Below, piece by piece: positions 1-36,379 of a stretch of DNA of 36,876 nt. A model generated the notes under the pieces. That model was not told where the DNA came from. It made no database searches and saw only the letters and a list, made by a program, of their open reading frames with translations. A program made the position numbers and the translations under genes. Each line of letters starts with the position of its first letter. Position 1 is the stretch's first letter. Origin of the DNA: Eremomyces bilateralis CBS 781.70 (lineage: Eukaryota); the NCBI GenBank assembly GCA_010015585.1, contig ML975172.1; one strand, given 5' to 3'.

Positions 1-3000
1 TCTCAAGTAGCCATGACACAACATCGAACGACGTGATTTCTCCTTTCAATGCCGCTCCGCGATGATCTCGAATGCTCTGATTCACCTCCGGTGGCAAAAA
101 GAACGTGACGCTTTGGGTAGTGCCAAGAAGGCGAAGTCGCATGGCAGCTGCTTGTTGTTAGCCGATTCGCGAGATCTGTAAGGAATTTGAGGTTACTTAG
201 TGTTGACAAACCTTGGACAAGTTGATCTTTTGTTTGAGACAACCCTAGTGTTAGAGCGCCCCGTGCATTGACTGGGAGCTTCAAGTCTGTTCCACGGGCA
301 TGGGACTGATCAATATAAACAAGACATCCAGCAAGATTATCCGCGAAAGACGAAGCCAGGAGTGGGACGAGTGTCCCCCCCTTAGAGTAGATCATAGGCT
401 TGCTATTTTTGTCGAAAAACAGGGCAGCAGTAGCACTGTGACCTTCGGAACCGTGTAACTTACTGTCCACACCTAGCCATTCCTTGACTAGTGTCAGATT
501 GTCCATCTCAAGGACTTGAGCACCAGCATCGATAAGGATCATTATCCCTTTCTCGCAGAGCATCCGCAGTAAACCGTTCTCACCAATGTGCTTTCCCTGG
601 AGGTCCACAGCTAGGACACAGTCCCTATTTCTCGGCTTCAGAAGATATATGAGAACTTCGGCATTGACACTAGACAGCTTTGGTAGGTCTTGCTGCTTTA
701 TGTTGAACGGAAGTAAGAACCGATTGTCGTTAGTACCGCTGAACCCTGTGGTGAGGGCCAGAGCTCCTCTAGCCTGACCTTTACCACCCGTAGTCTGCAT
801 AGGAGGGGCTGCCGAGGAAGACTGTGCTAAAGGAATATCCCATGATGAACTCTGCAGCTTATGTGGGAAAACCTTGGCATGCTTTGGAAAGGCCAAGTTA
901 TTAAGAAAATAGTCAATGACAGGCACCTCAAGCCGCAGGCAACTCCATAATTCCTTGAGCTGAATCTCGTCATCGAGATTGATGGCCATCCAATCCTTCA
1001 GCGAGTCGGGTACAGCCCCCTGGGCATGTATCCATCTCTCGTAGTGGCTGGCAGGATCATCGGTCTGCATCAGGTGCTGAAGGGCCCCACGGAGCTGCTG
1101 AGGGGTAAGTCCACCGTAATAGAAGGATAGCGATGTCAGCAAGAGCGATACATCTGGCTGACCGAATTCGGCTTGTTCACTAGGGACACCTTTTGCATGA
1201 AACGGCACGCTTATGGGCTCTCGATCCGGATGTAGTCCGTATTGTACGTTCCATCTCTTTTTTAGCGTAAGGATCAGAATCCGGTGCACAAATAACCCCC
1301 GCAGAAGGTAGATCACGTCTCGGATGGTCGGTATTTCACAAAACCCGTTACGAATCGCTTCAACATCAACAGGAGTGACCTTCTCCTCTGAAATGAATCT
1401 CCGAATCTGCTCTCCATGTTCTTGAAGGACCTCTCCTTGAGGGAGAATGCTACTTCTGCCGGAGCAAATGTCATCAACCAGTCTGTTGACCAACGCAATC
1501 TCTGCATCCCGCCTCATGAAGTATACCATTGGGAAACCGCCGTTGGGTCGTTCAACGACCTCGATGGAGGTTGGAAACTGCTGGTGGATGCTCCAAAAGT
1601 GCACCTTCGCTAGGCTCAACACTTTCTCCACAGTTCCCCAGCGATGAGAATGACCAGGAAGCACCTTCTGAGAACCGGAGGGGTAAATCAACTGCGTTTG
1701 GACGGCTAGAATACTGTCGCTTTCGTCTAGAATATCGCGACACCGTCTCTCGAGCCAATTTTGAACGTTCTATCGAGCGTTAGTCATCAAACAGCTGGCG
1801 ATTCAATCCAATGGGGTACCGTACTATCATTGGAGTAGCCTGCTCTACCTTCCCGTCAAGAAGCATCTGGAGACCGCTCAACTTGAAGGAGAGACCATGT
1901 TCCGGGTTTTGGATCAAAATGCCACCCGAGCGCCTCACAGCCTGATGTAGATCGTGATATGCCCTAATGTTCTGCACGGTGGCACGTGTCCTTCGAGAAA
2001 AGGGGATATGTGAGACTTCCCTTCCAATTAGCCCTCCAAGGCGGGATTGCAAAACTTGCGCTGACTGCAAAAGCAGACTTCTCGGTACAATCAACCGGAC
2101 CAGGCGCCTTGTATCAGCAAGCACGCAGGCCACCATCGGGAAGACAACGCTACTCTTACCTTGCCCCATATTCATCTGTAGAAGAGAGTTCATCCCACCA
2201 GAGGGGCTTATTGTCGCCATCGCGACGTCCACCTGCTCAGGACGAATCGAAATATTGGACTCGATTTCCAGCAGAAGCCAGTCTGGGAACCGTTTCGGAT
2301 CCCAGTTCCGAGTGCCCATATTCGCAACTTCGGCGTGGAGAATTTGATCATTGCTTCTGGACGCAGCTGCCCATAGACGAAGGAGTCGCTGCAGTCGAGT
2401 GATAGCATCTGCGAAGTGGAAGACGAAATCTTTGGCTGGGCCCACAAGTCGGGCTCCGGCCGAAGTGCGAATTGTCTCTAACAACGAGACAACGCTCACT
2501 GCCGGCCAGAGCCCGCCGCTCTGCATCCAGAAGGCTTGCGGTGATGCTGAAGAAGGTCCATTTTGCGCGGCACAAAGGAGTTGGAATATGTCAGATCGAG
2601 CTTGCTCGATATATGACTGTAGCGTCTGACTATTGAGCTCGCCTAATCCCATGCGATCCATAGTTTTGGTGGACTTGAATGCATCCAGACTCTTGCGTAA
2701 ATCCGCACCGTACAGATTCCGAATTGAAGAACCACTTTGGACGAGGGGCGTCAGGATTTTTTCTAGCTCAATCACCTCTGCGGAGGCATTTAGTGGTTGG
2801 CGGGTGTTTGGATGGGATTCTCCAGGGCCATTTTCGATCCGATGCTGGGAGAAAAGCTCCTCCAAGGGGAACATCCGGCCCATGGATCTGAACGACACCC
2901 CATCAATCTGGAAGCTTAAGGGAAGCAGCGAAGCCAGGATTTCTGTCGTTGTCCTCTTGTCAATCTCTGCCCGGCAATTATCGAGATGAAACCTTTTCTG

Positions 3001-6000
3001 GGAAAATGACTTAGGGAAAGTATCGTTTTGCGATACGTAAAGCTTGTGCAAGGCGTGCTGCACTGCCTCAATGTACGGTGAGAGACGGAAGTTCGCGTAG
3101 AGACGGCACCATTCTGCCTTTAAGCTGTCTAAAGCATCGTCGAGCCTGATATAGCCGAATGCAATGTCGGACAACCCTTTCACATTGTGCCAAGCGCACG
3201 GGAATTGTATTGTCAGTAGATCGCCCAGCCGATCACAATCGCGCTTGACATGGCGCTCATAGTCCTTGCGGATGTCGGTCTGCTCGGTTCGTGAAAATTG
3301 TCGAATCTCAGGGGGAGGAGGCTCGGCAAACTCAGGGACTCTTTCATGAATGAATGATTTTCGAAACTTTTGATATGCCTTGAAGCCAACAAAACATTCG
3401 AACTCAGGCGGCGGTATGACTTTGAGTTCTTCGACAAATACGTAGACCAGGAGCGTACGTATTGCATCCATGTCAACTTCATCTCGGAAACAGATCTTCG
3501 CAAACAGGAACATCATCATGCTTTCGTCTTCCAGGTTCAAGCATCTGCAAAGTGACACCAGGCTGCCCCAGTGCTCCGATATATTGAGGGACAATATCTC
3601 GGAGAGAACGCCACCGGAAAAAGGTGTATCGAACCCCCCGATAAGCGGCCAACTCTCAAGTTTGCCCATAAGATCTTCACAGGTTTGGAGAGAGCTTGGA
3701 TTTGCATTTCTGACATCTTTCACAACCCGGATGACATTCAACCGCGCTGCAGACCCACTGTCGTCGCCTCTGGCTTGGTAGAGTAGATCTACAACCCCGG
3801 TGAGCGGTTCCTCTATGCTCGCGAGTCTTTGATACAGGAGCCGTCGGTACCGGCTTCGATCAGAGAGATGGGCATCGCCTTGAGACTCATCCATCTGGTA
3901 TGGCGTACCATTCGTGTCATAGAATCGCCCAAGCTCATTTGATTTAGCCAAGATACGCTGCACCGCGCTTAGATACGGTTCTTGCTGAATGTGTGTGGTG
4001 AGGTGTGAATCCCATGTGATACTTTGCATCCTCTTCATCTCAGGAGGATAGTAGACTCTGATAGGAGTTAGGTGTGCGATCTGTGTCAGAATTGTTTTGT
4101 GCAAGGTGGGATTGAGCGGTTGCCAAGGAATGCTAGACGCTGAACGTAAGCAATGCAATGCCTCCTCGGATCCAGTACGCCGGGTCAGTGGATCTGGTAG
4201 AATCCATGACGTGTACGCATGAAGAAGGGCCTTTTCGTAAAGAAATCGCGGCTCTGGAGCACAGTCGATTCGTCCCAAAGTATCGTTTACAAAGTACCTG
4301 CAAACTGTTAGCAAGCGCTCAAAAATCTGATTCCTTCGTCAAAATATTGTCCGAACGGGTGTATACAAGGCTCCAAAGGGGCACCATCAAGCTTAGAAGG
4401 ACATACCTATAGTATCCATCGCCCTCCATCTTAACGGCGACCCTTACATGCGCGCCGGACCTGGTGAATTGAAGCGGTCCAAATGGTACCAGAACGAAAC
4501 GTTCCCCAGGGTTATTGACATCCTTAAAAACTATTTTAGAATAAAGGCCATAGAACGTCCCACAGTCCTGATTCAAGTCAAACTCGGCTCGAAGTTGCCA
4601 GCTCTCCAACCGTTGTTGGCTGTTCACAAAAAAGCTGAGATCGAGTCGTTTGAGCTCTGCGAAGAGACGCTTCTTTCCCTGGAAGACTGTAATGAACCCT
4701 GGAAGCTCAAAGAACCGGAAATGGTCTACCATTAACCGGTAAATGTAAGAGTTGGGATCTACCAAAACAGACCCCCGTCGATGAGCAGTGCGCTTGTAGT
4801 AGTTGATCGCCCAATTGGAATACTTCAAATTCCAGATGTCGGGCTTCCGGCGGATATCGATGGTGCCTGTGCCAAGATCAAGCCAGTGATAGCAGCTATC
4901 GACCAGATCTGCAGGGAGATCATAGCTTCGTTCGTCAGGATAGAAGAGTTTCCGTGGTAGCAACTCCAGAAGTCTGCGTTGGAACACTGCACGGATAACA
5001 AGCTTGCCGTTACGGAGACCGAAATGGACCTCATGTCCATTCATGTGAGTGGCTAGGCAGTAATCCATTCCTTCGATGTTACTCGGCCACGTAAAAAGAG
5101 TCTCGAAGCCAAACAACTCTTTCAGAAGCTCCAGTTCGCGATGAGTAGGGGGGAGCTGGCCAAGGGGCTCATTGTTGATGAGCAGATGCCCCTCGATGTA
5201 GTTCAACTGCACAGATCGCTTGTCGAGAAGTTGTCCTTCAGCACCACCAGCATTAGGGATGTCCACAGTGATCTCGATCCAATTCTGGTATGGTGCATGT
5301 AAGAATGTGCATTCGGAGTAGATCATCGCCTTTCCCGCATCCTTTTGAGAAAAGACATGGTCAAGAGCACTGGTGATTCCTTTAGGTCGTGCCTCTATCG
5401 ATGAGCGCACCAAATTCTCAATCGCCGCACGCAATCCAATGTCTCTGACTAGGGCATTCTTCAGAGGAATAGGCAACGTATGTGGGTCGCAGTTCAAGTT
5501 GTCCTTCAAGACGATAGAGGAAAATATAAACTGCTCCAGCTCCGATGAAGTGAGCCTCGAATTTGTCTCTGCTCTTCCTGACAAGGTGATTCGGCACAAG
5601 AGAGAGCCCCAGAGGGAGTATGTCGTGACTTTATTCGAGACGTCTGCGTCAGAAGTTCCCTTCAGCATGATTGTTCGCAAGTCCTGGATCCATCCGAAAG
5701 TGATCTCTCGCGCAGTCTTCAGCAATTTCAACGTCCTGGTTTTTGAAACATCGCGATGGGCAAGCGATTGGATCCGTAACGCAAGAGTGATGATCATTTC
5801 CATGACAGCGTATTCGCGGAAGTTGCCCCATAAAACATCAACACGCTGTTCCAGTTGTGCAACTAGCTTCTCGCAAAAGTAGTTGTCTTCGAAGACAGCG
5901 TGAGCTGTACGCCGGACTCCATCCCTGTGTCCCGGACCAGCTTGTAACGCTAGGCGCGAAAATAGGAGTACTGTTGCTTCTGCGCTGAAGTTCAGATTTA

Positions 6001-8570
6001 GGGATCCGAGTTCAACGAGCATCGTTTGCCATCTAGAAGCCATCGTTCCTGGAAGTGAGAGAAAGGACAGATATTCATGCACATTCGTGCCGTTCGCACA
6101 ATGGAACTGCGCTGCAAGAACCTCGGATGTAGAGGGGCCTGTGATACCAGTGGAGATTTCCCTAAGGAGTGGAAAAGCGGATTGGGTTGATCCAGCGGGG
6201 ACCTGAAGCATGCAGTGCCTCGAGAATGATGGGCGGGCAGTATCCTTCAACCAGACACCGGATTCAATGTCGTAGTACTCCCAGTTCAGATTATTCTCGC
6301 AGAGGATATCCTCGAGATCCACTGGAAATGCGCTCTCCTTGTAATGGGTTTCTAGAAGCGATTTCGACTGCGACGCAAGCACAACACCCGTCGCTTGGGT
6401 ATGACAGGAGCGGCGGGCAAGCTGAGAATATGTGTGGACAAAATCTTTTGGCTCCTTTCCAGCTCCCACTTCTAGCCCAAGTGTCCTGAGGACCTTGAAT
6501 GTCGAATCTCTATATTTCAGGTAGGAGTCAGGCGCTAAGAGTTCAAAACACACCACCCGCGCCTTGACCTCATCTGAGGGCAACGGATTCTCGAGGATGC
6601 GAATTCTCATTCTTTTTGTGACCCTCCCGAGATAGCATCGCCCACATCCGTCAGAATCGTGGATCTGGCCATAGGGCCACTCACCGTTCTCTGTGTACAA
6701 ACAAGTGAGAGATGCCCGCTTTTTCATGTAGTCTGTGTACTCCGACGTGAGAGATTCCCATTCATCCTTCTTATCAGTCCGACGCACTTGGTGTACTGCG
6801 TGCAGATGCTTAAATAGCGACTGGAGTGCCGCAGAGCTATGCCCTTCCTTAAAGTATCGATGGGCAAAGCAACTGGGTCCCGGACTCTCGAAAATCGTGA
6901 CAGCACCCATTCGAGCATTAGAGTGCCTACGATCTAGGTACAGCTGGACTTTTGCCAACCGGTGCATATCGGCGAGTTTTGGAATTTCCAAACCGTGTAG
7001 CAGGCTCGATGAAAACGGTGGCACGTACTCTCTGAGTAACGGATAGTGTTTAATGGCGCCTCGGTCCATGGCCACCCAGAGATCCATCACAAGGAGGATC
7101 ATCAAACTGCATTGAACAGAGTCGCCAGCATATGCCTCCAACGCAGCAGCGAGGCATGTGTCGATCCAGCTTGTAATCTCGGCCAAGGAAAGCGGGTGTT
7201 CGGTATCAACAAGCGCAGCGCGTATCTCCAACTCCTTCGCAGCGAGGGACGTATATCGCTTTGTGAATTCTGACGCTGGATCGGACACATGTGTGCTGGG
7301 CGGCTGGTGATTCCGGGTCTTGTACCCCGAAATCTTGGCTTCATCAAGGAGCTTTTGGATATACTGGCCGCTGTGGGGGAGGGATAATGTGCAATCCTTT
7401 GGTGAAGCTCTAAGCGGAATTCGGTAGACTGGTCTCTTGGTCTTGGTCTTGAAATTTTCCCAAACGTCCGCCAAATATGTATTGGTCCGATTCAGCGCGT
7501 TCTTGAAATAAGGCTGTCCCCACGCAAGGAGCACCTCGTACGTTTGTTTCGCAGAAGGTGAGGCAACTTCGCGATCAGACTCCATTTTCGTGAGTTTTCG
7601 AGCGAGCTTTGCTTTCAGTAATTCCAACTCTTCACATTCGAGCTTGCCGATGCAATCTTGGAGAAAGTTGCATAGCAACATACACATGACCATCTTGTAA
7701 AGTGCCCGTCCTGAGCGCTTAGACTGCAGCATGAGGGTCCTTTGCACCGCCACCCGAAGGGTTAGCCAGACGGCAGATCTCCTCCACGGCTTGTCAGAGT
7801 CATGCCAAACCACGTCATCGCGAACACGCTTTCTGAGCAACGGTACGTTGGCTCGGTAACCACATGCCTCAACAAGAGACAATAGGCATCCCGTAATGAG
7901 GGAGGGGTCCGCTGTTTCACGAGTCTCGATGATCTGGGCGCCAGCTTTCTTCGTTCGGGCAGCGAACCGATCAATAGACTCCGTAGCAGCTTGTTCCAGA
8001 AATTCTGCGAGCTGCTCTTGAAACAAAGGCTTCTCGAAGTCTGTGTGCAACATTGCAGAACTGGTGGTAGGAAAATCCCAACGCAACGCACTAGTCGCTG
8101 CGAGGACTTGGTCGCAAAGAGGCGAGGCCTCGAACGCCTCAAAGAACACCTGAGCGTGGTCACCACCCCTACAGGAAGTTAGACGAGTGCAAGATAGTCA
8201 ATCATATATTCACTTACTGGCTGTCATATCGGATAACAAGACCACAATTTTGTTCCTTGATGTAGAGTACAAGTGACATGCCAGGTCCAAGTTCGGCCAA
8301 TGCTGCCAGGAGCTTCGCTTTGTCCATGGCATTTTCGAAATTCACAGTCCTGAAAGACTGAAGCATAATACGAATGCTGTTGAACTGGGGCGCCCACTCC
8401 AGTGGACCCTCGCCTGCTGCCACTTTGCAAGCTGCGATCATTCGATTCGTCAACTCAAGGTCGACAGCATCGATGAACGGCTCGGCTTTGCCAGGAAGAT
8501 TTGGGGGTAGTGCAATATGGTTGAACACGGCCTTCGGCAAAGCGGCCATGTTCCTCACTTCGGTTGCCAT
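1..8570 (-). CDS. Giant fungal DUF6606/DUF3638/DUF3645-type protein with an SF2/SecA-like P-loop NTPase core; 3' end lies outside the window. Exons 8570-8218, 8168-4407, 4297-1825, 1769-212, 147-<1 (>2,760 aa)
   Basis: Four GT-AG introns (8169-8217, 4298-4406, 1770-1824, 148-211), each with a CTAAC branch site, join the ORF-track pieces in frame. Motifs typical of this family: N-terminal FNHIALPP...QNCGL...FEAFEASP; KRVRDDVVW...PWRRS; PDWLLLEIE; QMNMGQGKSSV (Walker A); RDILDESD (Walker B, revealed by splicing); KRWNVQYGLHP.R...VPFHAKGVPS; TGFSGTND; IDAGAQ; RGTDLKLP; QAAMRLR. Confidence 0.88.
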
Positions 8571-30535: not shown

Positions 30536-31869
30536 CTATAAGAACGTATATAGTATGGCCAACAGACCAAGCAGGGCGCCCAAACCTCCAGTTCGCACCG
30601 CAGCGGCGCCCGACTCCTCACCCGCTTCCCCCGACGGGTTCTCGGTGCCGACCGTCTGGCTCCCGCCATCGCGTTTCGTGAGGTTCATGTTATACCCGTT
30701 GACGGCGAAGGTCACTTTGCCCGTGGAATAGAAGGCCTCCTGGCCGAATTCGACGAGGCCGAGGTTCAGGGAGGGGTCGATGAGATCGTTGTCGATGAGG
30801 AATTGGAGGAGGGGGTAGAAGTCCGTGTCGAAGGATGTGGTGTTAATAGGAGGGAACCAGGTGAAGGAGGTGGTGCCGCGTTGGTTGGTGCCGCGGTAGA
30901 GAGTGCTGGTGAAGGTTAGTTCTAGACTTGTAGATGCCGTTGCGGGCTCCAGCAGAATTGAGGAACCGATGTAGTGTAAAGAAAATGTAGCAGGGTAGGC
31001 GTAGATGAAGAAGTTAAGGAAGGCACGGTGAGGGAACATACTATTTCGCATCCTCCAATTGAAAGTTCCACGTCGGCTCGTTCCATCCCAGCGGATACGG
31101 CTGCCCAATAGTACCCAGCCAAATCAAGATCTCATATTTGGCCAGGGTCTCGTTCTGGGACTTGGCCGGATCCGCGTCCACGAACATATCGATCGCGACG
31201 TTGGCGGTGACGCTGTTGGCTACCAAGCCGGCGGCATCGAAGGAGGAGTCCAGGGCGGCGACATCCCCGGCCACGAAGCTCCAGTTACCCGACAGCTTCA
31301 GCCCCGAGATATTCGCCAGCGGGGTCGGTAGCGCGTCCGAGTTGAATTTGACATGCGGGAAGGAATGCACCGTGCCACGATCGGTCTCCCATTGCCAGTT
31401 CACTTCGAAGGCGGACCCTTCGTTGGTAACCTATGATCGCGAGATAGGTGTTAATGGAGATCCACAGCAGGCGGGAAGGGGGACGGAGCTTGTAGTTCCC
31501 TTCTTCTGTAGATCGGTAAATCTGCGAAAATAGGTGATAGACTCGGTCGGAGGTGGTACCGTACCTTCATGCATTGCTCGCCGTGCTCCGTAGGATTCCA
31601 AACATTGGTTACAACTATTACAAGGATAACATTCAGCACATGTCCTTATTCAAGTTCTGGGCGGACGAAAAGGTCGAGCGGCAGGGAGAAGAGCGCGTTT
31701 CCGTACTTGTGTAGCCATTGCCAGGGCTGCTGTAGAAGTCATTCAGCCCACAAGAGAGTTGATCAACTTTGACCTGAGCAGCGTGCGCCGGAGTCGACAC
31801 CAGAGCAATCGACGCCGTCGTCCATATTAGGTCCGATAGACGTGGTGTTCTCAATCGAAATATAACCAT
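30536..31869 (-). CDS. Secreted, predicted GPI-anchored glycoside hydrolase family 12 (endo-beta-glucanase/xyloglucanase-like), 323 aa. Exons 31869-31707, 31614-31565, 31430-31042, 30905-30536
   Basis: GH12 motifs: N.WN...G.QC, W.W....VHSFP, ANVAIDMF, nucleophile YEILIWL...PLG, acid/base FGQEAF. Signal-peptide-like N-terminus. The C-terminus has a small-residue site (SGAA) followed by the hydrophobic tail LGALLGLLAILYTFL. Introns 31615-31706, 31431-31564 and 30906-31041 keep the frame. Confidence 0.88.
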
Positions 31870-34127
31870 GACTACGGAGTCTCGGTCTATGTCGCTAGAG
31901 CAACTTCTCTCGTTGGAACACGACGCTGCTATGTAGGTGTCGAGCACTTTCTCCACAAAAGGGGAAAGTGGTGCAAACTTCTAGGCCCAGTCGATGGTTT
32001 CAACTGATTCGGAGGAGCGGACGTACACTGTCTCGGGCGAACTAGGGAATGACGAAAGACTGTCCTACAGAACGACACGTACGTGGCTTTGGGGTGGTAC
32101 GAAGAAGAACAGAAGCATGGAGAAGTTCAGTTGGGGTCGCGGGGAGCGCGCGAAGCGGTGGAGTGGTTGAGCCCCTACCACTGATGCCACGACCTGACGA
32201 CCAAATTGATGGTGATGGCGCTCCTTGGACCGCCGTTCCATACTCTGCCGTTTCATTTCCGGATTGGTCGATTCCCATGTGGGTTGCGTTCTTCATTTTA
32301 CGATTGGCCCAGCCCGAAACTGCGCGCCAATCATAGCCGAAGACAGGCAATGCGCAAACCTTATTGATTTTCGGCACAGCTCCGGCTGTGTACCCAGCAA
32401 CGAGTCTCCGATAGATAGTAAGCTCACGGTAGGGCTTAATAAGATTCTCAGGAAGGAAAAAATCATCGTTCTCCGCGTACAAAGGACGTCTGTTGTCTTG
32501 CCCATCCTCGAGCTATCGAGTATCGATCTGGTAGGTTTGTTAGCGATCCTGTGTACTCATCGTGGATCAGCATATCAGATAACGGAACGCCACACGCAGC
32601 CACCGATGGACTCGGACCGCGTCGCTGTCGTGTGAGAGCGTTGATGTGGCCCATGAGGAATTCATTTTTCATGCAAGGAGCCAATGGGGTAAGAACAGAT
32701 TGGAGGAACACACGAGAAATGGCTCCATGGTAATTCGTTTCGCCCTCCTCACGTTGCAGTCGATGGAATATCCATAACTAACAATAAGCTCTGTTCCTAA
32801 GATTAGAATCCTCGATCGCCGCGTCCTTTACTTACCGTCTACGGACTAGGTAGTGGATAGGTGCTGACTCCCTGTGGCGGTTTGACCGGGGTTCCATGGT
32901 TGGGCTGGTGGGGTGGCCATTCGATTAATTCGAGGTACTCCGTCCAGAGTCCAGAGCCCAGACTCCAGTCCAGACGGACGAGAGAAACTATCGAATCCTG
33001 CACACCGTTAGCGAACCAGCTGCAACTCTCCGTCCGATGTGAAATCCCGATGCCGCGTAATGGGCTTAAAACGATAAGGACTCAAAGAAACAGGAACAGC
33101 GAACAACTTTGGTGGTTGGGATGCGGCGCGCGCGGGGGGTTGCAGTGATGGGCATCTGTGGTTGTATTTGGTGTCTTGGCAGACCAGGATACGTTTCTTG
33201 TTTGAGCTTACACACCCATGCTTTTCATATGTCGTGTGACAATCTCTTGGTAAAGACAGTCCTGTAACTTTGATGAGAAGTGACGAAGCATTTTAGTGCT
33301 GAAAGTTCCGTCGCTTCCATAGGGCACTGCGTCATACTGCCGAGAATAGCGGCTCCACCCCCTTTCGAGGATCCTCGAGGAACATGTCGGAGATAGCGTT
33401 ATTTTGTCCTTCAGAGATATTGTATCTTTGGAGGCAAGGTAAACAGAATCGGTAGGTTTGGAACCGGGGACGAAACTGTCCTTGGGAAGTCCACGTAGTG
33501 TACCGTGATTGAAAGTAGAATTCTTTTGCAGCCACTGTGGTTGGAAGCTCTCCAAAGCTTGTTCCGTACCCCTGTTTCTAGTCCACGATAAGACTTGCTT
33601 GAAAATGTGGTCGTTGGCGAAGACTCCTTCCGCGTCCACTACACCGTAATGTTCCACTTCCTCGTGTCATTAAGAGTTACCAATTATTTGCATTAAAGCA
33701 CCTCCGTATCCGTAAGCAAAGCGATAATCGTGTATCCGGATAGCCCCATATGTAATGCAGCTATATTCTGAAGCCGGTACCAAGTGCAGGCGGACTGTTC
33801 CTGGTGGCTGGAAAGCGGGTGGGATACGACGGGGGGACATCTGCAAACTGCATGGCTTGCCGATGCACTGGAGTCTCCGCAAGCGGCAAATCGTTCATCT
33901 TTAATCCTAGGGTGTCGTCCCGTCTTCTGTGCTCGAATTCCTATTTACTATTTTTTGAATTTTCAGCCTTCTCTCGTTACCGACCACCTCTTGTTGTACC
34001 TGCTGGCTGGGAGTAGGAGAAGAGGAATTGCCGATTCCCTTCGTGCCATTCGTTTTGGAAGGATTTGAGTTGAAGATTCATGTGCTGAATTCGATAATTG
34101 TCCCTTCGCTTTCCCCAGAATAACCCA

Positions 34128-36379
34128 ATGGGTCTCCTCAAGAAGAAAAGAGGATCCAATGGGCAACCCCATCCCCAAGCTGAGGTTCGGTCGAGCGATT
34201 CAGCTTCAGAGTCGCAGCCAGTGATGACGCAAGAGGCTCTGGATTTAAACATCAGTCAAGCGGAGTTTGCAACTGGCGGTCCATTCCAAAATTACGACTG
34301 GGAATTCCGTGATAGTTCTCGAGATTCGATCGGTACAGGATCCGCAGCAGGGTGGTCAAGAAGTGTAAGAACAGATCAACTCGACGCAAGGGATGTAGAT
34401 TAACGCTGGACAGACCACGAGACCACACTCGTACGGTCAAGATATTGACGTGATAGTAAGTAACGCATATCCATCGTCAAGTTGTCATCGCTCACCTTGA
34501 CGTAGACACCGGTGCAGCCTGCTGCAAATCCAACGGGACTTCGACATGCGTCCACTCTGGTCAGCGAATTGCCAAGTGCTGCCATGAGCGGCGCTACACT
34601 TGCTGGTGATCCTGAGAAGGGCGATGCTATTGTCACAAGGGGTATCGTTCCATCCAGCTCGGGCTCGTCAACAGACGAGAAGAAGGAGGCGAAGACCGAT
34701 GTGAAATCAGAGCATAATAACCTTGACAACATCCCACCGAAGAAACCTGGAATTTTCCGCCGAATCTACCTTACCTTCCGGAGAACATACTGCCCCCTCG
34801 AAGATCCACCGTTAGTCCTCCCATCCGGACCGACAGACGAGGAGAAATACTTCTATATCCATACGAATCGAATCCCGCTATACATACTCGGGGTCCTTGC
34901 GTTTTTGAGTCTGTCTGCCGGAATGTGGCTGTTCGCGCTTTGCTCCGTCATTTTCAGTTGGTTTGGGTTTTTCGTCGGCCTCTTGCAGATATACCTCCTT
35001 ATCTCGTACTTTGTCGGCGTCATTGGAAAGGACTTCGATCTCGCCTCACACGACAGCTTGTTGGAAGAGTTTCCAGTAAATGAGAAGACCGCGCCGACGG
35101 TGGATATTTACTTGCCGTGCTGCAAGGAGCCTTTGGAGATCTTGGAGAACACATACAACCATATTTCCAAGCTCGAGTATCCGAAAGGGAAGCTTCAGGT
35201 ACATGTGATGGATGATGGAAATATGGAGGAGGTGCGGCTGCTTGCAGAAAGGTATGGATTCCATTACTCGGTTCGCGACGATCGACCGCGCTTGAAGAAG
35301 GCTGGAAACCTCCGATGGACCTTTGCGAGAACAAGCGCCGATTTTTTTGCTATTTTCGATGCCGATTTCTGTCCCCGATCCGATTTTCTATTGGAGTTGA
35401 TGCCGGAGCATTTAGCGGATAACAAGACGGCAATTGTGCAGACTCCTCAATTCTTCCGAGTCCGAGAGGATCAGACTTGGGTGGAGCAAGGAGCGGGGGC
35501 GACGCAGGAACTCTTCTACCGAGTTGTGCAGGTGAACAGGAACAAATGGGGTGCCTCGATCTGTGTTGGCAGCAACGCGATGTATAGACGGGAGGCCCTG
35601 GAACCGGTTGGTGGAACGGCAGAGATCGGTTTCTCTGAGGATGTGCATACCGGGTTCGGCGCAGTTGACCGGGGTTGGAAGGTCAAATACATACCCATTT
35701 GCCTGGCGACCGGCGTTTGTCCAGACAATCCCCGAGCATTCTTCTCGCAGCAGATGCGTTGGGCTCGTGGTTCGACAACGCTGTTGACGAACCCACATTT
35801 CTGGACGTCGAACCTGTCACTCATGCAGAAAGTCTGCTACCTGTGTGGTAAGTCAGATCCTTATTGCCTCATCACCATTCGCACGTGCTTACCCGAAAGA
35901 CAGGTCTAATGTACTACTCCGCCATATCTCTCTCCATCTTCATCTCTCCAATTCCCGGTATCCTCCTCCTCTGGCTCCGTCCCGAGTACTTCAAATACTA
36001 CAACCTCGCCTTCGCCATCCCCTCGATTGTCTACGGCCTCCTTCTATTCCGCTTCTGGGCCAAAGCCAAATATGGCATGAATGTCCAACATATCATGGTC
36101 ATCCAGTCGTACGCGTATTTAACCGCCATCAAAGATCGACTTCTGGGGATCAACCTGCACTGGGTGCCGTCCGGAGATGCGAAGGCCCATAAGAACCACA
36201 AATACCGCAACATGCGGATACTCTGCTGGACATGGACCTTCTTTACTCTTGGTGGTATGATTTCGGCGGTCGTATGGCGGCTGACGCATGATCTTCCATG
36301 GTATCATACCCTACCATTGATCATTCTCAGTGTGTACAACACGTATCTTGCACATTACTTTCTCTTATATTGTGGTTGA
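34128..36379 (+). CDS. Processive GT2 cellulose-synthase-like (BcsA/CelA-type) beta-glycan synthase, about 698 aa. Exons 34128-34364, 34414-34455, 34506-35847, 35904-36379
   Basis: Two N-terminal TM helices; VDIYLPCCKEP; DDG; KKAGNL; FDADF (DxD); VQTPQFF; VGSNAMYRR; SEDVHTG (TED-like); QQMRW (QxxRW); C-terminal TM helices. Introns 34365-34413, 34456-34505 and 35848-35903 keep the frame. The first two exons are less certain; there is an alternative ATG at 34585. Confidence 0.92.

What the first reader, a model, noticed from the sequence alone, without database searches (positions are those of the whole stretch)
30536..36379. Head-to-head cellulose-synthase-like GT2 and GPI-anchored GH12: candidate fungal beta-glucan synthesis/processing module
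Seen: a BcsA-type processive GT2 with an intact D,D,D,QxxRW set, and a GH12 with both catalytic glutamates, a signal peptide and a GPI-type tail. They are transcribed divergently across a shared ~2.26-kb region (31870-34127). Established: bacterial cellulose-type systems co-encode a glucanase with the synthase (BcsA-BcsZ; Streptomyces CslA-CslZ). True fungi are not generally regarded as cellulose producers, but Aspergillus GT2s (CelA, Tft1) are linked to wall glucans, including mixed-linkage beta-1,3;1,4-glucan. Typical fungal GH12s are free plant-wall-degrading enzymes, not surface-tethered. Inference: this GH12 trims, releases or transglycosylates the polymer made by the neighbouring synthase, forming a two-gene wall or matrix polysaccharide (cellulose-like or lichenan-like) system. 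The GT2 may be of bacterial origin.
Basis: partly seen in the sequence, partly recalled or inferred. Interest (0 to 1): 0.8.

Follow-up and report, generated by a model that had tools for sequence, protein, structure and literature searches.

The report
Fungal polymer synthase with anchored glucanase
A membrane sugar-polymer synthase and a surface-tethered cutting enzyme sit side by side in this mould and in many other moulds, where a third gene making activated glucuronic acid usually joins them, so they probably build a still unidentified, possibly acidic, cell-surface polysaccharide.

Summary
Both genes are real, intact and spliced as modelled (six introns seen in one RNA-type run): a 698-aa BcsA-like GT2 and a 323-aa GH12 with both catalytic glutamates and a GPI-type tail. 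The linkage is conserved: a tailed GH12 of the same subfamily lies next to the GT2 in 7 of 12 informative fungal metagenome locus groups, and two accessions away in Pseudovirgaria and Zymoseptoria. In Neurospora the probable GT2 and UGD orthologues are tightly co-expressed, the gene between them only loosely. Two family-invariant arginines replace neutral BcsA residues in the interface helix. Best reading (0.5): a glucuronic-acid-containing beta-linked surface polymer, trimmed or released by the tethered GH12; neutral beta-glucan is the main rival (0.3). No product or activity is shown. The scan noted this gene trio twice before on other DNA; my literature searches found no description.

The parts
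30536..31869 (-). Tailed GH12 gene, 4 exons (31869-31707, 31614-31565, 31430-31042, 30905-30536), 323 aa
   Evidence: model; three joints; family and fold
31777..31869 (-). Probable signal peptide (about residues 1-31), weak hydrophobic core
   Evidence: hydropathy only; no SignalP
31131..31133 (-). E171, predicted catalytic nucleophile (YEILIW)
   Evidence: invariant in 26 of 26 rows of alignment A2
30737..30739 (-). E257, predicted acid/base (FGQE)
   Evidence: invariant in 26 of 26 rows of A2
30536..30613 (-). GPI-type signal: omega candidate S299, spacer and hydrophobic end
   Evidence: a similar tail ends 9 of 9 GT2-linked GH12s
31870..34127 (.). 2258-bp region between the start codons; largely covered by transcript-type contigs; no ATG-initiated ORF over 95 aa, no Rfam match
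32730..32801 (+). Spliced GT..AG intron in a non-coding + strand transcript (long GT2 leader or separate RNA)
   Evidence: joint 32728-32801; sequence
34128..36379 (+). Processive GT2 gene, 4 exons (34128-34364, 34414-34455, 34506-35847, 35904-36379), 698 aa, about 6-7 membrane helices, no PilZ found
   Evidence: model; three joints
35211..35219 (+). DDG329 motif
35358..35366 (+). DAD378 (DxD) motif
35520..35540 (+). R432 and R438 (R290, R296 in P0001): family-invariant arginines in the interface helix where E. coli BcsA has G and N
   Evidence: 22 of 22 rows; 16 of 16 rows shown, fungal, viral, actinobacterial; BcsA alignment
35637..35645 (+). EDV471, finger-helix catalytic base D472
35748..35762 (+). 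QQMRW508 (QxxRW)

Best explanation
The two genes are the conserved core of a fungal synthase-dependent polysaccharide system. The GT2 polymerises UDP-sugars at the plasma membrane and threads the chain out (inferred from fold and motifs). One substrate is UDP-glucuronic acid, made by a eukaryote-type UDP-glucose dehydrogenase that is cluster-encoded in most relatives and sits on another contig here (inferred from linkage and co-expression). The product is a beta-linked, uronic-acid-containing surface polymer, either a glucose/glucuronic-acid copolymer or a glucuronan (inferred; linkage unknown). The GPI-tethered GH12 cuts the chain at the surface to release, size or graft it (inferred). Shown: genes, splicing, motifs, folds, conserved linkage. 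Not shown: any activity, product, location or binding.
For: Linkage: of 80 loci kept from 469 confirmed metagenome matches, 27 groups are fungal; of the 12 with at least 4.3 kb upstream, 7 have a tailed GH12 and 7 a UGD; 6 have both; short-flank groups add 2 GH12 and 1 UGD. GT2 and GH12 accessions are two apart in Pseudovirgaria (KAF2752905/KAF2752903) and three Zymoseptoria tritici strains (e.g. SMQ49965/SMQ49967). UGD stays linked in different positions (upstream divergent, downstream tandem). The fungal UGD matches eukaryote-type UGDH structures best (E 5e-121 against 9e-56 for the next set), while bacterial and phage members of the GT2 family carry their own dehydrogenases (8 of 65 genome loci, 2 of 23 viral loci), so the pairing appears to have arisen more than once. 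The hydrolase slot is refilled: Pezizales-like loci carry a GH26 with a GPI-type tail instead; 43 of 65 bacterial loci carry GH26, GH16, GH6 or GH10. Neurospora NCU08226 (gt2-4) and NCU08228 (UGD) share one NUC-3 peak with NCU08227, at spacings that fit UGD<- ->GH12->GT2, rise 2.57 and 2.61 log2 in the nuc-3 mutant and correlate over 18 samples (log Pearson 0.93) (PMC12506109 supplements). Two invariant arginines replace neutral BcsA residues. The window genome keeps one UGD with intact active-site motifs and no UDP-xylose-synthase-like hit among 8 PF16363 matches.
Against: In this genome the only UGD found is mid-contig on C6, at least 96 kb from a contig end, so it is not linked. 5 of 12 informative fungal groups lack the GH12 and 5 of 12 lack UGD; basidiomycete-like and L046-type loci have neither. 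Only 8 of 65 bacterial loci have a UGD, and UGD genes are common near bacterial glycosyltransferases anyway; the recurring bacterial partners GH16, GH26, GH6 and the fungal GH12 are, by general knowledge, beta-glucanase or lichenase families, which fits a neutral glucan as well. NCU08227 tracks NCU08226 only loosely (Spearman 0.28, p 0.26; log2 +0.68, padj 0.099). That NCU08226/NCU08227 belong to these two families was recalled and fits the geometry but was not tested by sequence. The place of the two arginines relative to the substrate was not measured on the model. An NCU08226 deletion showed no cellulase change, only more biomass (PMC3364853 passages).
Confidence: 0.5

Rival explanations
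1. One reading: the GT2 makes a neutral beta-glucan (mixed-linkage or cellulose-like) that the tethered GH12 trims or grafts; UGD serves a separate decoration step or is a co-regulated passenger.
For: Closest solved relative is BcsA by sequence and fold; partner hydrolases across the family are GH12, GH26, GH16, GH6, all of which include beta-1,4 or mixed-linkage glucanases (general knowledge); UGD is unlinked in this genome and absent near 57 of 65 bacterial members; NCU08226 is listed among candidate lichenin synthases (PMC6796803 passage).
Against: UGD is kept beside the GT2 in 7 of 12 informative fungal groups in varied positions and is co-expressed with it in Neurospora; no second glycosyltransferase recurs in the fungal loci to use UDP-GlcA; the Tft1 switch motif has no match; AfTFT1 already accounts for mixed-linkage glucan in A. 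fumigatus (bioRxiv 10.64898/2026.09.17.752320).
Confidence: 0.3
2. UDP-GlcA is converted to UDP-xylose and the product is a xylan or glucoxylan, or the GT2 makes only a short or lipid-linked glycan that the GH12 transfers onto the wall.
For: GH26 and GH10 partners belong to families with xylanases (general knowledge); phage loci pair the dehydrogenase with an epimerase-family gene.
Against: No UDP-xylose-synthase-like gene among the 8 PF16363 matches in this genome (counts are lower bounds); the phage epimerase tested scores best as a TviC-type C4 epimerase; none recurs in the fungal loci; the GT2 has a full channel-forming helix set.
Confidence: 0.1
3. The genes are neighbours by shared history or shared regulation; the GH12 acts on another substrate (wall lichenin or plant glucans).
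For: Loose co-expression of NCU08227 with NCU08226; some Colletotrichum genomes hold more than one tailed GH12; 5 of 12 groups lack the GH12.
Against: Linkage survives inversion and spans loci that group with Dothideomycetes, Leotiomycetes and Sordariomycetes proteins while other neighbours turn over; a different tailed hydrolase (GH26) takes the slot in Pezizales-like loci.
Confidence: 0.1

Closest known systems
Bacterial cellulose synthase BcsA with endoglucanase BcsZ; Streptomyces CslA-CslZ (system layouts recalled)
   Same: Processive GT2 fold and D,D,D,QxxRW set; best sequence and fold matches; a hydrolase is co-encoded.
   Different: Far below the NCBIfam CelA cut-off (191.5 against 699.1 bits); no PilZ found, no BcsB-like neighbour; two arginines where BcsA has G and N; partner is a GPI-type GH12; UGD usually linked.
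Aspergillus fumigatus Tft1 / A. nidulans CelA, fungal mixed-linkage glucan synthase (bioRxiv 10.64898/2026.09.17.752320, parts 1-4 of 5 read; PMC4344333 and PMC5519750, passages)
   Same: Fungal cellulose-synthase-like GT2 of similar size, in filamentous ascomycetes.
   Different: No match to the published Tft1 switch motif; Tft1 makes its polymer when expressed alone in K. phaffii, and the preprint names no hydrolase or neighbour; the celA neighbour named in print is a DUF3431 gene. Direct identity to Tft1 could not be computed because no tool returned its sequence.
hasA-hasB (hyaluronan) and pneumococcal type 3 cps3S-cps3D operons (hasA/hasB logic from bioRxiv 10.64898/2026.02.21.705424 passages; cps3 recalled)
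   Same: Processive GT2 paired with UDP-glucose dehydrogenase, the usual sign of a glucuronic-acid polymer.
   Different: The GT2 is BcsA-like, not HAS-like (HAS structures rank lower at 12-15% identity); it carries a tethered glucanase.
Aspergillus galactosaminogalactan cluster (Gtb3, Uge3, Ega3, Sph3, Agd3; recalled, not checked in any call)
   Same: Fungal cluster of a polymer synthase, a nucleotide-sugar enzyme and membrane-anchored hydrolases.
   Different: Other enzyme families, alpha-linked amino-sugar product, deacetylase present.
Chlorovirus 'CESA CelA-like' GT2s of the A473L type (PMC5408694, PMC9614988, passages)
   Same: Large viral contigs hold 45-49% identical GT2s; one contig holds three copies, as the review lists for some chloroviruses; assignment to this family is my inference.
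   Different: Function unknown in print; no GH12 beside any of 23 viral loci.

Membership tests
Processive GT2 (cellulose-synthase superfamily) | D, DxD, xED and QxxRW motifs in a GT-A domain | tested here: met
Processive GT2 (cellulose-synthase superfamily) | Membrane helices on both sides of the catalytic domain forming a channel | tested here: met
   hydropathy, AlphaFold helices, fold match to BcsA
BcsA cellulose synthase | Score over the CelA/BcsA model cut-off | tested here: not met
   191.5 against 699.1 and 165.9 against 992 bits
BcsA cellulose synthase | PilZ domain and BcsB partner | tested here: not met
   no Pfam match on the last exon; no such neighbour recurs in fungal loci
BcsA cellulose synthase | Makes beta-1,4-glucan | not testable with these tools
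   needs biochemistry
Tft1/CelA mixed-linkage glucan synthase lineage | 70-96% identity to AfTFT1 | not testable with these tools
   AfTFT1 sequence not returned by any search; preprint supplements closed
Tft1/CelA mixed-linkage glucan synthase lineage | Switch motif at Tft1 548-558 near the C-terminal pore helices | tested here: not met
   best ungapped scores 11-22 in five family members, mostly in the catalytic domain; a weak single-motif test
GH12 | Beta-jelly-roll fold with nucleophile and acid/base glutamates | tested here: met
Classical secreted fungal GH12 (Cel12A type) | Catalytic domain without anchor, grouping with Cel12A-type enzymes | tested here: not met
   22-24% identity to solved ones; separate tailed clade, support 0.92, apart from the genome's own classical GH12
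GPI-anchored protein | Signal peptide, omega site, spacer, hydrophobic C-terminus | tested here: inconclusive
   tail clear and conserved (25 of 44 near-complete relatives; 9 of 9 linked ones); signal peptide weak here; no predictor or localisation
GT2-UGD uronic-acid polymer systems (has, cps3) | UGD gene linked to the synthase | tested here: inconclusive
   met in 7 of 12 informative fungal groups, not met in this genome
GT2-UGD uronic-acid polymer systems (has, cps3) | Uses UDP-glucuronic acid as donor | not testable with these tools
   needs assay

The most novel reading that the evidence does not exclude
This GT2 lineage, shared with large algal viruses, phages and actinobacteria, is the missing synthase of a glucuronic-acid polymer (glucuronoglucan or glucuronan) in ascomycete walls, and fungi built a bacterial-style secretion module around it by recruiting their own UDP-glucose dehydrogenase and an interchangeable GPI-tethered hydrolase (GH12 or GH26).
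Probability: 0.42. Interest if true: 0.82.

Novelty: new variant of a known kind. Interest (0 to 1): 0.6.

Why it matters
Walls of Neurospora, Fusarium, Alternaria, Aspergillus and others are reported to contain glucuronic acid in a polymer of unknown nature (bioRxiv 10.64898/2026.02.21.705424, introduction passage). This module names a candidate synthase, precursor enzyme and processing enzyme, and makes the question testable in Neurospora, where an NCU08226 deletion strain exists (PMC3364853), and in K. phaffii, where Tft1 was just characterised. It would also give a function to an unexplained group of surface-tethered GH12s that are routinely counted as plant-wall-degrading enzymes, and to uncharacterised viral and actinobacterial GT2s. 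If the product is a neutral glucan it would still be a second, independent fungal beta-glucan synthase with its own trimming enzyme.

Tried and rejected
Looking beyond the window: the contig ends about 0.5 kb after the GT2, so the downstream neighbour is unknown; upstream neighbours (NAD(P)-binding protein, aldehyde dehydrogenase, PP2C) do not recur in related loci. The word-indexed protein searches for the GH12 were insensitive (1 hit, 31); the full HMMER search (150 of 388 listed) was used. Mapping SMAC_07994 to NCU08227 failed: the supplements searched (12 of 19 files of PMC6293562) hold no orthologue column. Literature: ten searches found no paper describing the pair or trio; one search gave 0 papers, two unrelated ones, one search was swamped by an unrelated gene name, and no main text among the hits names NCU08227. 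The library lacks most subscription papers, and bioRxiv supplements (the Tft1 preprint's Table S3 and Fig. S1) were closed and may include members of this clade. Rfam and the bacterial promoter scan (not suited to fungi) gave nothing. No run on record as RNA was listed; depth in run X1 cannot rank genes and was not used for co-expression. A FastTree grouping of fungi with the large-virus group (0.745) did not hold in IQ-TREE, so no donor or direction is claimed; no AU test was run. The GH5 beside L012 lacks a tail and may be chance. No complex prediction was sent because binding is not claimed. Sequence look-ups of earlier findings returned nothing.


Full report
OBSERVATION. The window is the end of contig C24 of G000; a database names the encoded proteins as from Eremomyces bilateralis CBS 781.70. 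The GT2 has four exons and 698 aa with DDG, DxD, EDV and QQMRW; the GH12 has four exons and 323 aa with E171 and E257, a weak signal peptide and a clear GPI-type tail. The start codons are 2258 bp apart. Contigs of one RNA-type run join across all six predicted introns. The database gene models are shorter (556 aa and a partial 271 aa); the joints favour the longer models. The same contigs cover most of the region between the genes and show a + strand intron at 32730-32801 with no long ORF, so a simple shared promoter is not shown.

THE GH12. It has the GH12 fold but only 22-24% identity to solved members. Of 150 listed relatives (388 at E up to 0.001), 44 were near-complete with both glutamate motifs: 25 have a long hydrophobic-ended tail, 17 do not (many of these begin with a membrane segment), 2 were unclear. 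The tailed ones, with one exception and two tail-less members, form one clade (support 0.92) that holds the window protein and all nine GT2-linked GH12s; the genome's only other GH12 is of the classical type. Named members come from Neurospora, Sordaria, Fusarium, Colletotrichum, Zymoseptoria, Coleophoma, Exophiala and others.

LINKAGE. A metagenome scan with the GT2 alignment kept 80 of 469 confirmed loci. By tree and 90% DNA clustering, 27 groups are fungal. Fifteen have under 4.3 kb upstream and were set aside for the rate; among the other 12, 7 carry a GH12 and 7 a UDP-glucose dehydrogenase, 6 both. Short-flank groups add two GH12 and one UGD. Eight of nine GH12-GT2 pairs are tandem; one (L020) is divergent like the window. 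The commonest order is UGD divergent from GH12 then GT2. GT2 and GH12 accessions are two apart in Pseudovirgaria and in three Zymoseptoria strains; the gene between was not identified. Misses: L012 (UGD, plus an untailed GH5), Pezizales-like L013/L025 (a GH26 with a GPI-type tail instead), L027, basidiomycete-like L032 group and L046 (nothing recurring). Apart from these genes, only a zinc-finger gene in three basidiomycete-like groups and the shadows of the same genes recur in three or more groups. In the window's genome the single UGD found has intact active-site motifs and lies on C6, 96 kb from the contig end. So Eremomyces keeps the synthase-hydrolase core, inverted, and lacks the physical link to UGD.

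NEUROSPORA. I recalled NCU08226-8 as a candidate; papers name NCU08226 gt2-4 and NCU08228 UDP-glucose dehydrogenase gld-2, both repressed by NUC-3 (bioRxiv 10.1101/2025.04.07.647663, one passage). In the supplements of the journal version (PMC12506109, rows seen) one peak lies 518, 1308 and 2671 bp from the ATGs of NCU08227, NCU08228 and NCU08226, which fits the common order. Over 18 samples GT2 and UGD correlate (Spearman 0.79, log Pearson 0.93), NCU08227 much less (0.28 and 0.09 by Spearman). A review says ncu08226 is among GT2 genes raised in perithecia (PMC6796803 passage); its deletion gave more biomass and no cellulase change (PMC3364853 passages). Family identity of these genes was not tested by sequence.

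ORIGIN. Outside fungi the closest matches are on viral contigs (23 loci; up to 49% identity) and, further off, mostly in actinobacteria (80 kept of 279, mostly 33-43%). In a 41-sequence IQ-TREE tree on query-anchored segments, fungi and virus- or phage-borne sequences form one clade (bootstrap 100) apart from actinobacteria (94); the sister of fungi is unresolved. 'Bacterial origin' is thus plausible in depth but not direct, and no direction is shown. In 65 bacterial loci with near-full flanks, 43 carry a GH26, GH16, GH6 or GH10, 47 an acyltransferase and 8 a UGD; none of 119 loci from the lower-ranked metagenome and genome sets, nearly all non-fungal, has a GH12. The fungal UGD matches eukaryote-type enzymes best and the GH12 clusters are eukaryotic, so the fungal cluster looks assembled from native parts around this GT2 (inference).

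MECHANISM. Shown: intact processive GT2 and catalytically complete tailed GH12, both spliced, with conserved linkage. Inferred: the GT2 extrudes a beta-linked polymer; UDP-GlcA is a donor, because non-orthologous dehydrogenases sit beside this family in fungi, bacteria and phages, no second transferase recurs in fungi, no UDP-xylose synthase was found here, and two arginines invariant across the family stand where E. coli BcsA has G and N; the tethered hydrolase releases, sizes or grafts the chain, because a tailed GH26 can replace it. I give this 0.5, a neutral glucan 0.3, a xylose-containing or short glycan 0.1, no substrate link 0.1. Against it: UGD is unlinked here and in most bacteria, and the partner hydrolase families are glucanase families by general knowledge.

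COMPARISON AND NOVELTY. It works like BcsA-BcsZ (synthase plus hydrolase) and hasA-hasB (synthase plus UGD) but fails BcsA membership and shows no sign of the Tft1 lineage (direct identity untested). AfTFT1 makes mixed-linkage glucan when expressed alone and its preprint mentions no GH12 or neighbour (parts 1-4 of 5 read, supplements closed). Other papers seen as passages only: PMC4344333, PMC5519750, PMC5872309, PMC10282164, PMC5408694, PMC9614988, PMC7997180, bioRxiv 10.64898/2026.02.21.705424; PMC6293562 as supplement rows. Ten searches found no description of the module (listed under Tried and rejected). The scan itself noted the trio on two other genomes (e1-7136713, e1-7560406); I had recorded the same reading before seeing them, and they are not independent support. 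New here: the inverted two-gene form with unlinked UGD, the tailed GH26 replacement, the viral relatives, the arginine pair and the Neurospora co-regulation. Verdict: real, conserved, uncharacterised; new variant of a known kind; interest 0.6.

Noticed in passing
window 31870-33214, intron 32730-32801 (+): A spliced non-coding + strand transcript lies between the two genes and is assembled into one contig with the GH12 5' part; it may be a very long GT2 leader with short upstream ORFs or an RNA overlapping the GH12 leader.
   Followed up: partly
P0163, P0168, P0171, P0177, P0182, P0188, P0280, P0281: A second fungal GH12 subfamily has an N-terminal membrane segment and no tail (type II anchor); its neighbours were not examined.
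   Followed up: partly
L002 610-2427 (G000 C18 about 397-398 kb): A second cellulose-synthase-like GT2 in this genome, 28% identical over 215 aa, with QSKKW in place of QxxRW and DDA in place of TED; possibly the CelA/Tft1-side paralogue or a degenerate enzyme.
   Followed up: partly
L013 7088-about 8680; L025 13556-14810: Pezizales-like loci carry a GH26 with a GPI-type tail downstream of the GT2, similar to the GH26s beside or fused to actinobacterial members (L096 fusion).
   Followed up: partly
L054, L065, L191 (phage-like contigs): Phages carry this GT2 with a short NDP-sugar dehydrogenase (with an intein in L191) and an epimerase-family gene: a phage-borne polysaccharide cassette.
   Followed up: partly
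L099, L102, L132, L145, L157 and other actinobacterial loci: A recurring GT2 + AT3-SGNH acyltransferase + GH26/GH16/GH6 cassette (47 of 65 loci with the acyltransferase); two Streptomyces loci also have a PL8 lyase nearby.
   Followed up: partly
L174 2253-2858 (G000 C6): A triose-phosphate/nucleotide-sugar transporter family gene lies about 7 kb upstream of the genome's single UGD; may be chance.
   Followed up: no
window 6-8197 (-): Three consecutive long frames with DUF6606, DUF3638 and DUF3645 domains, probably one very large gene with short introns or frame breaks.
   Followed up: no
Fusarium and Colletotrichum entries: Several tailed GH12 proteins are named 'glycosyl transferase' in databases, which may trace to a merged GH12-GT2 gene model somewhere; no real fusion was tested.
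   Followed up: no
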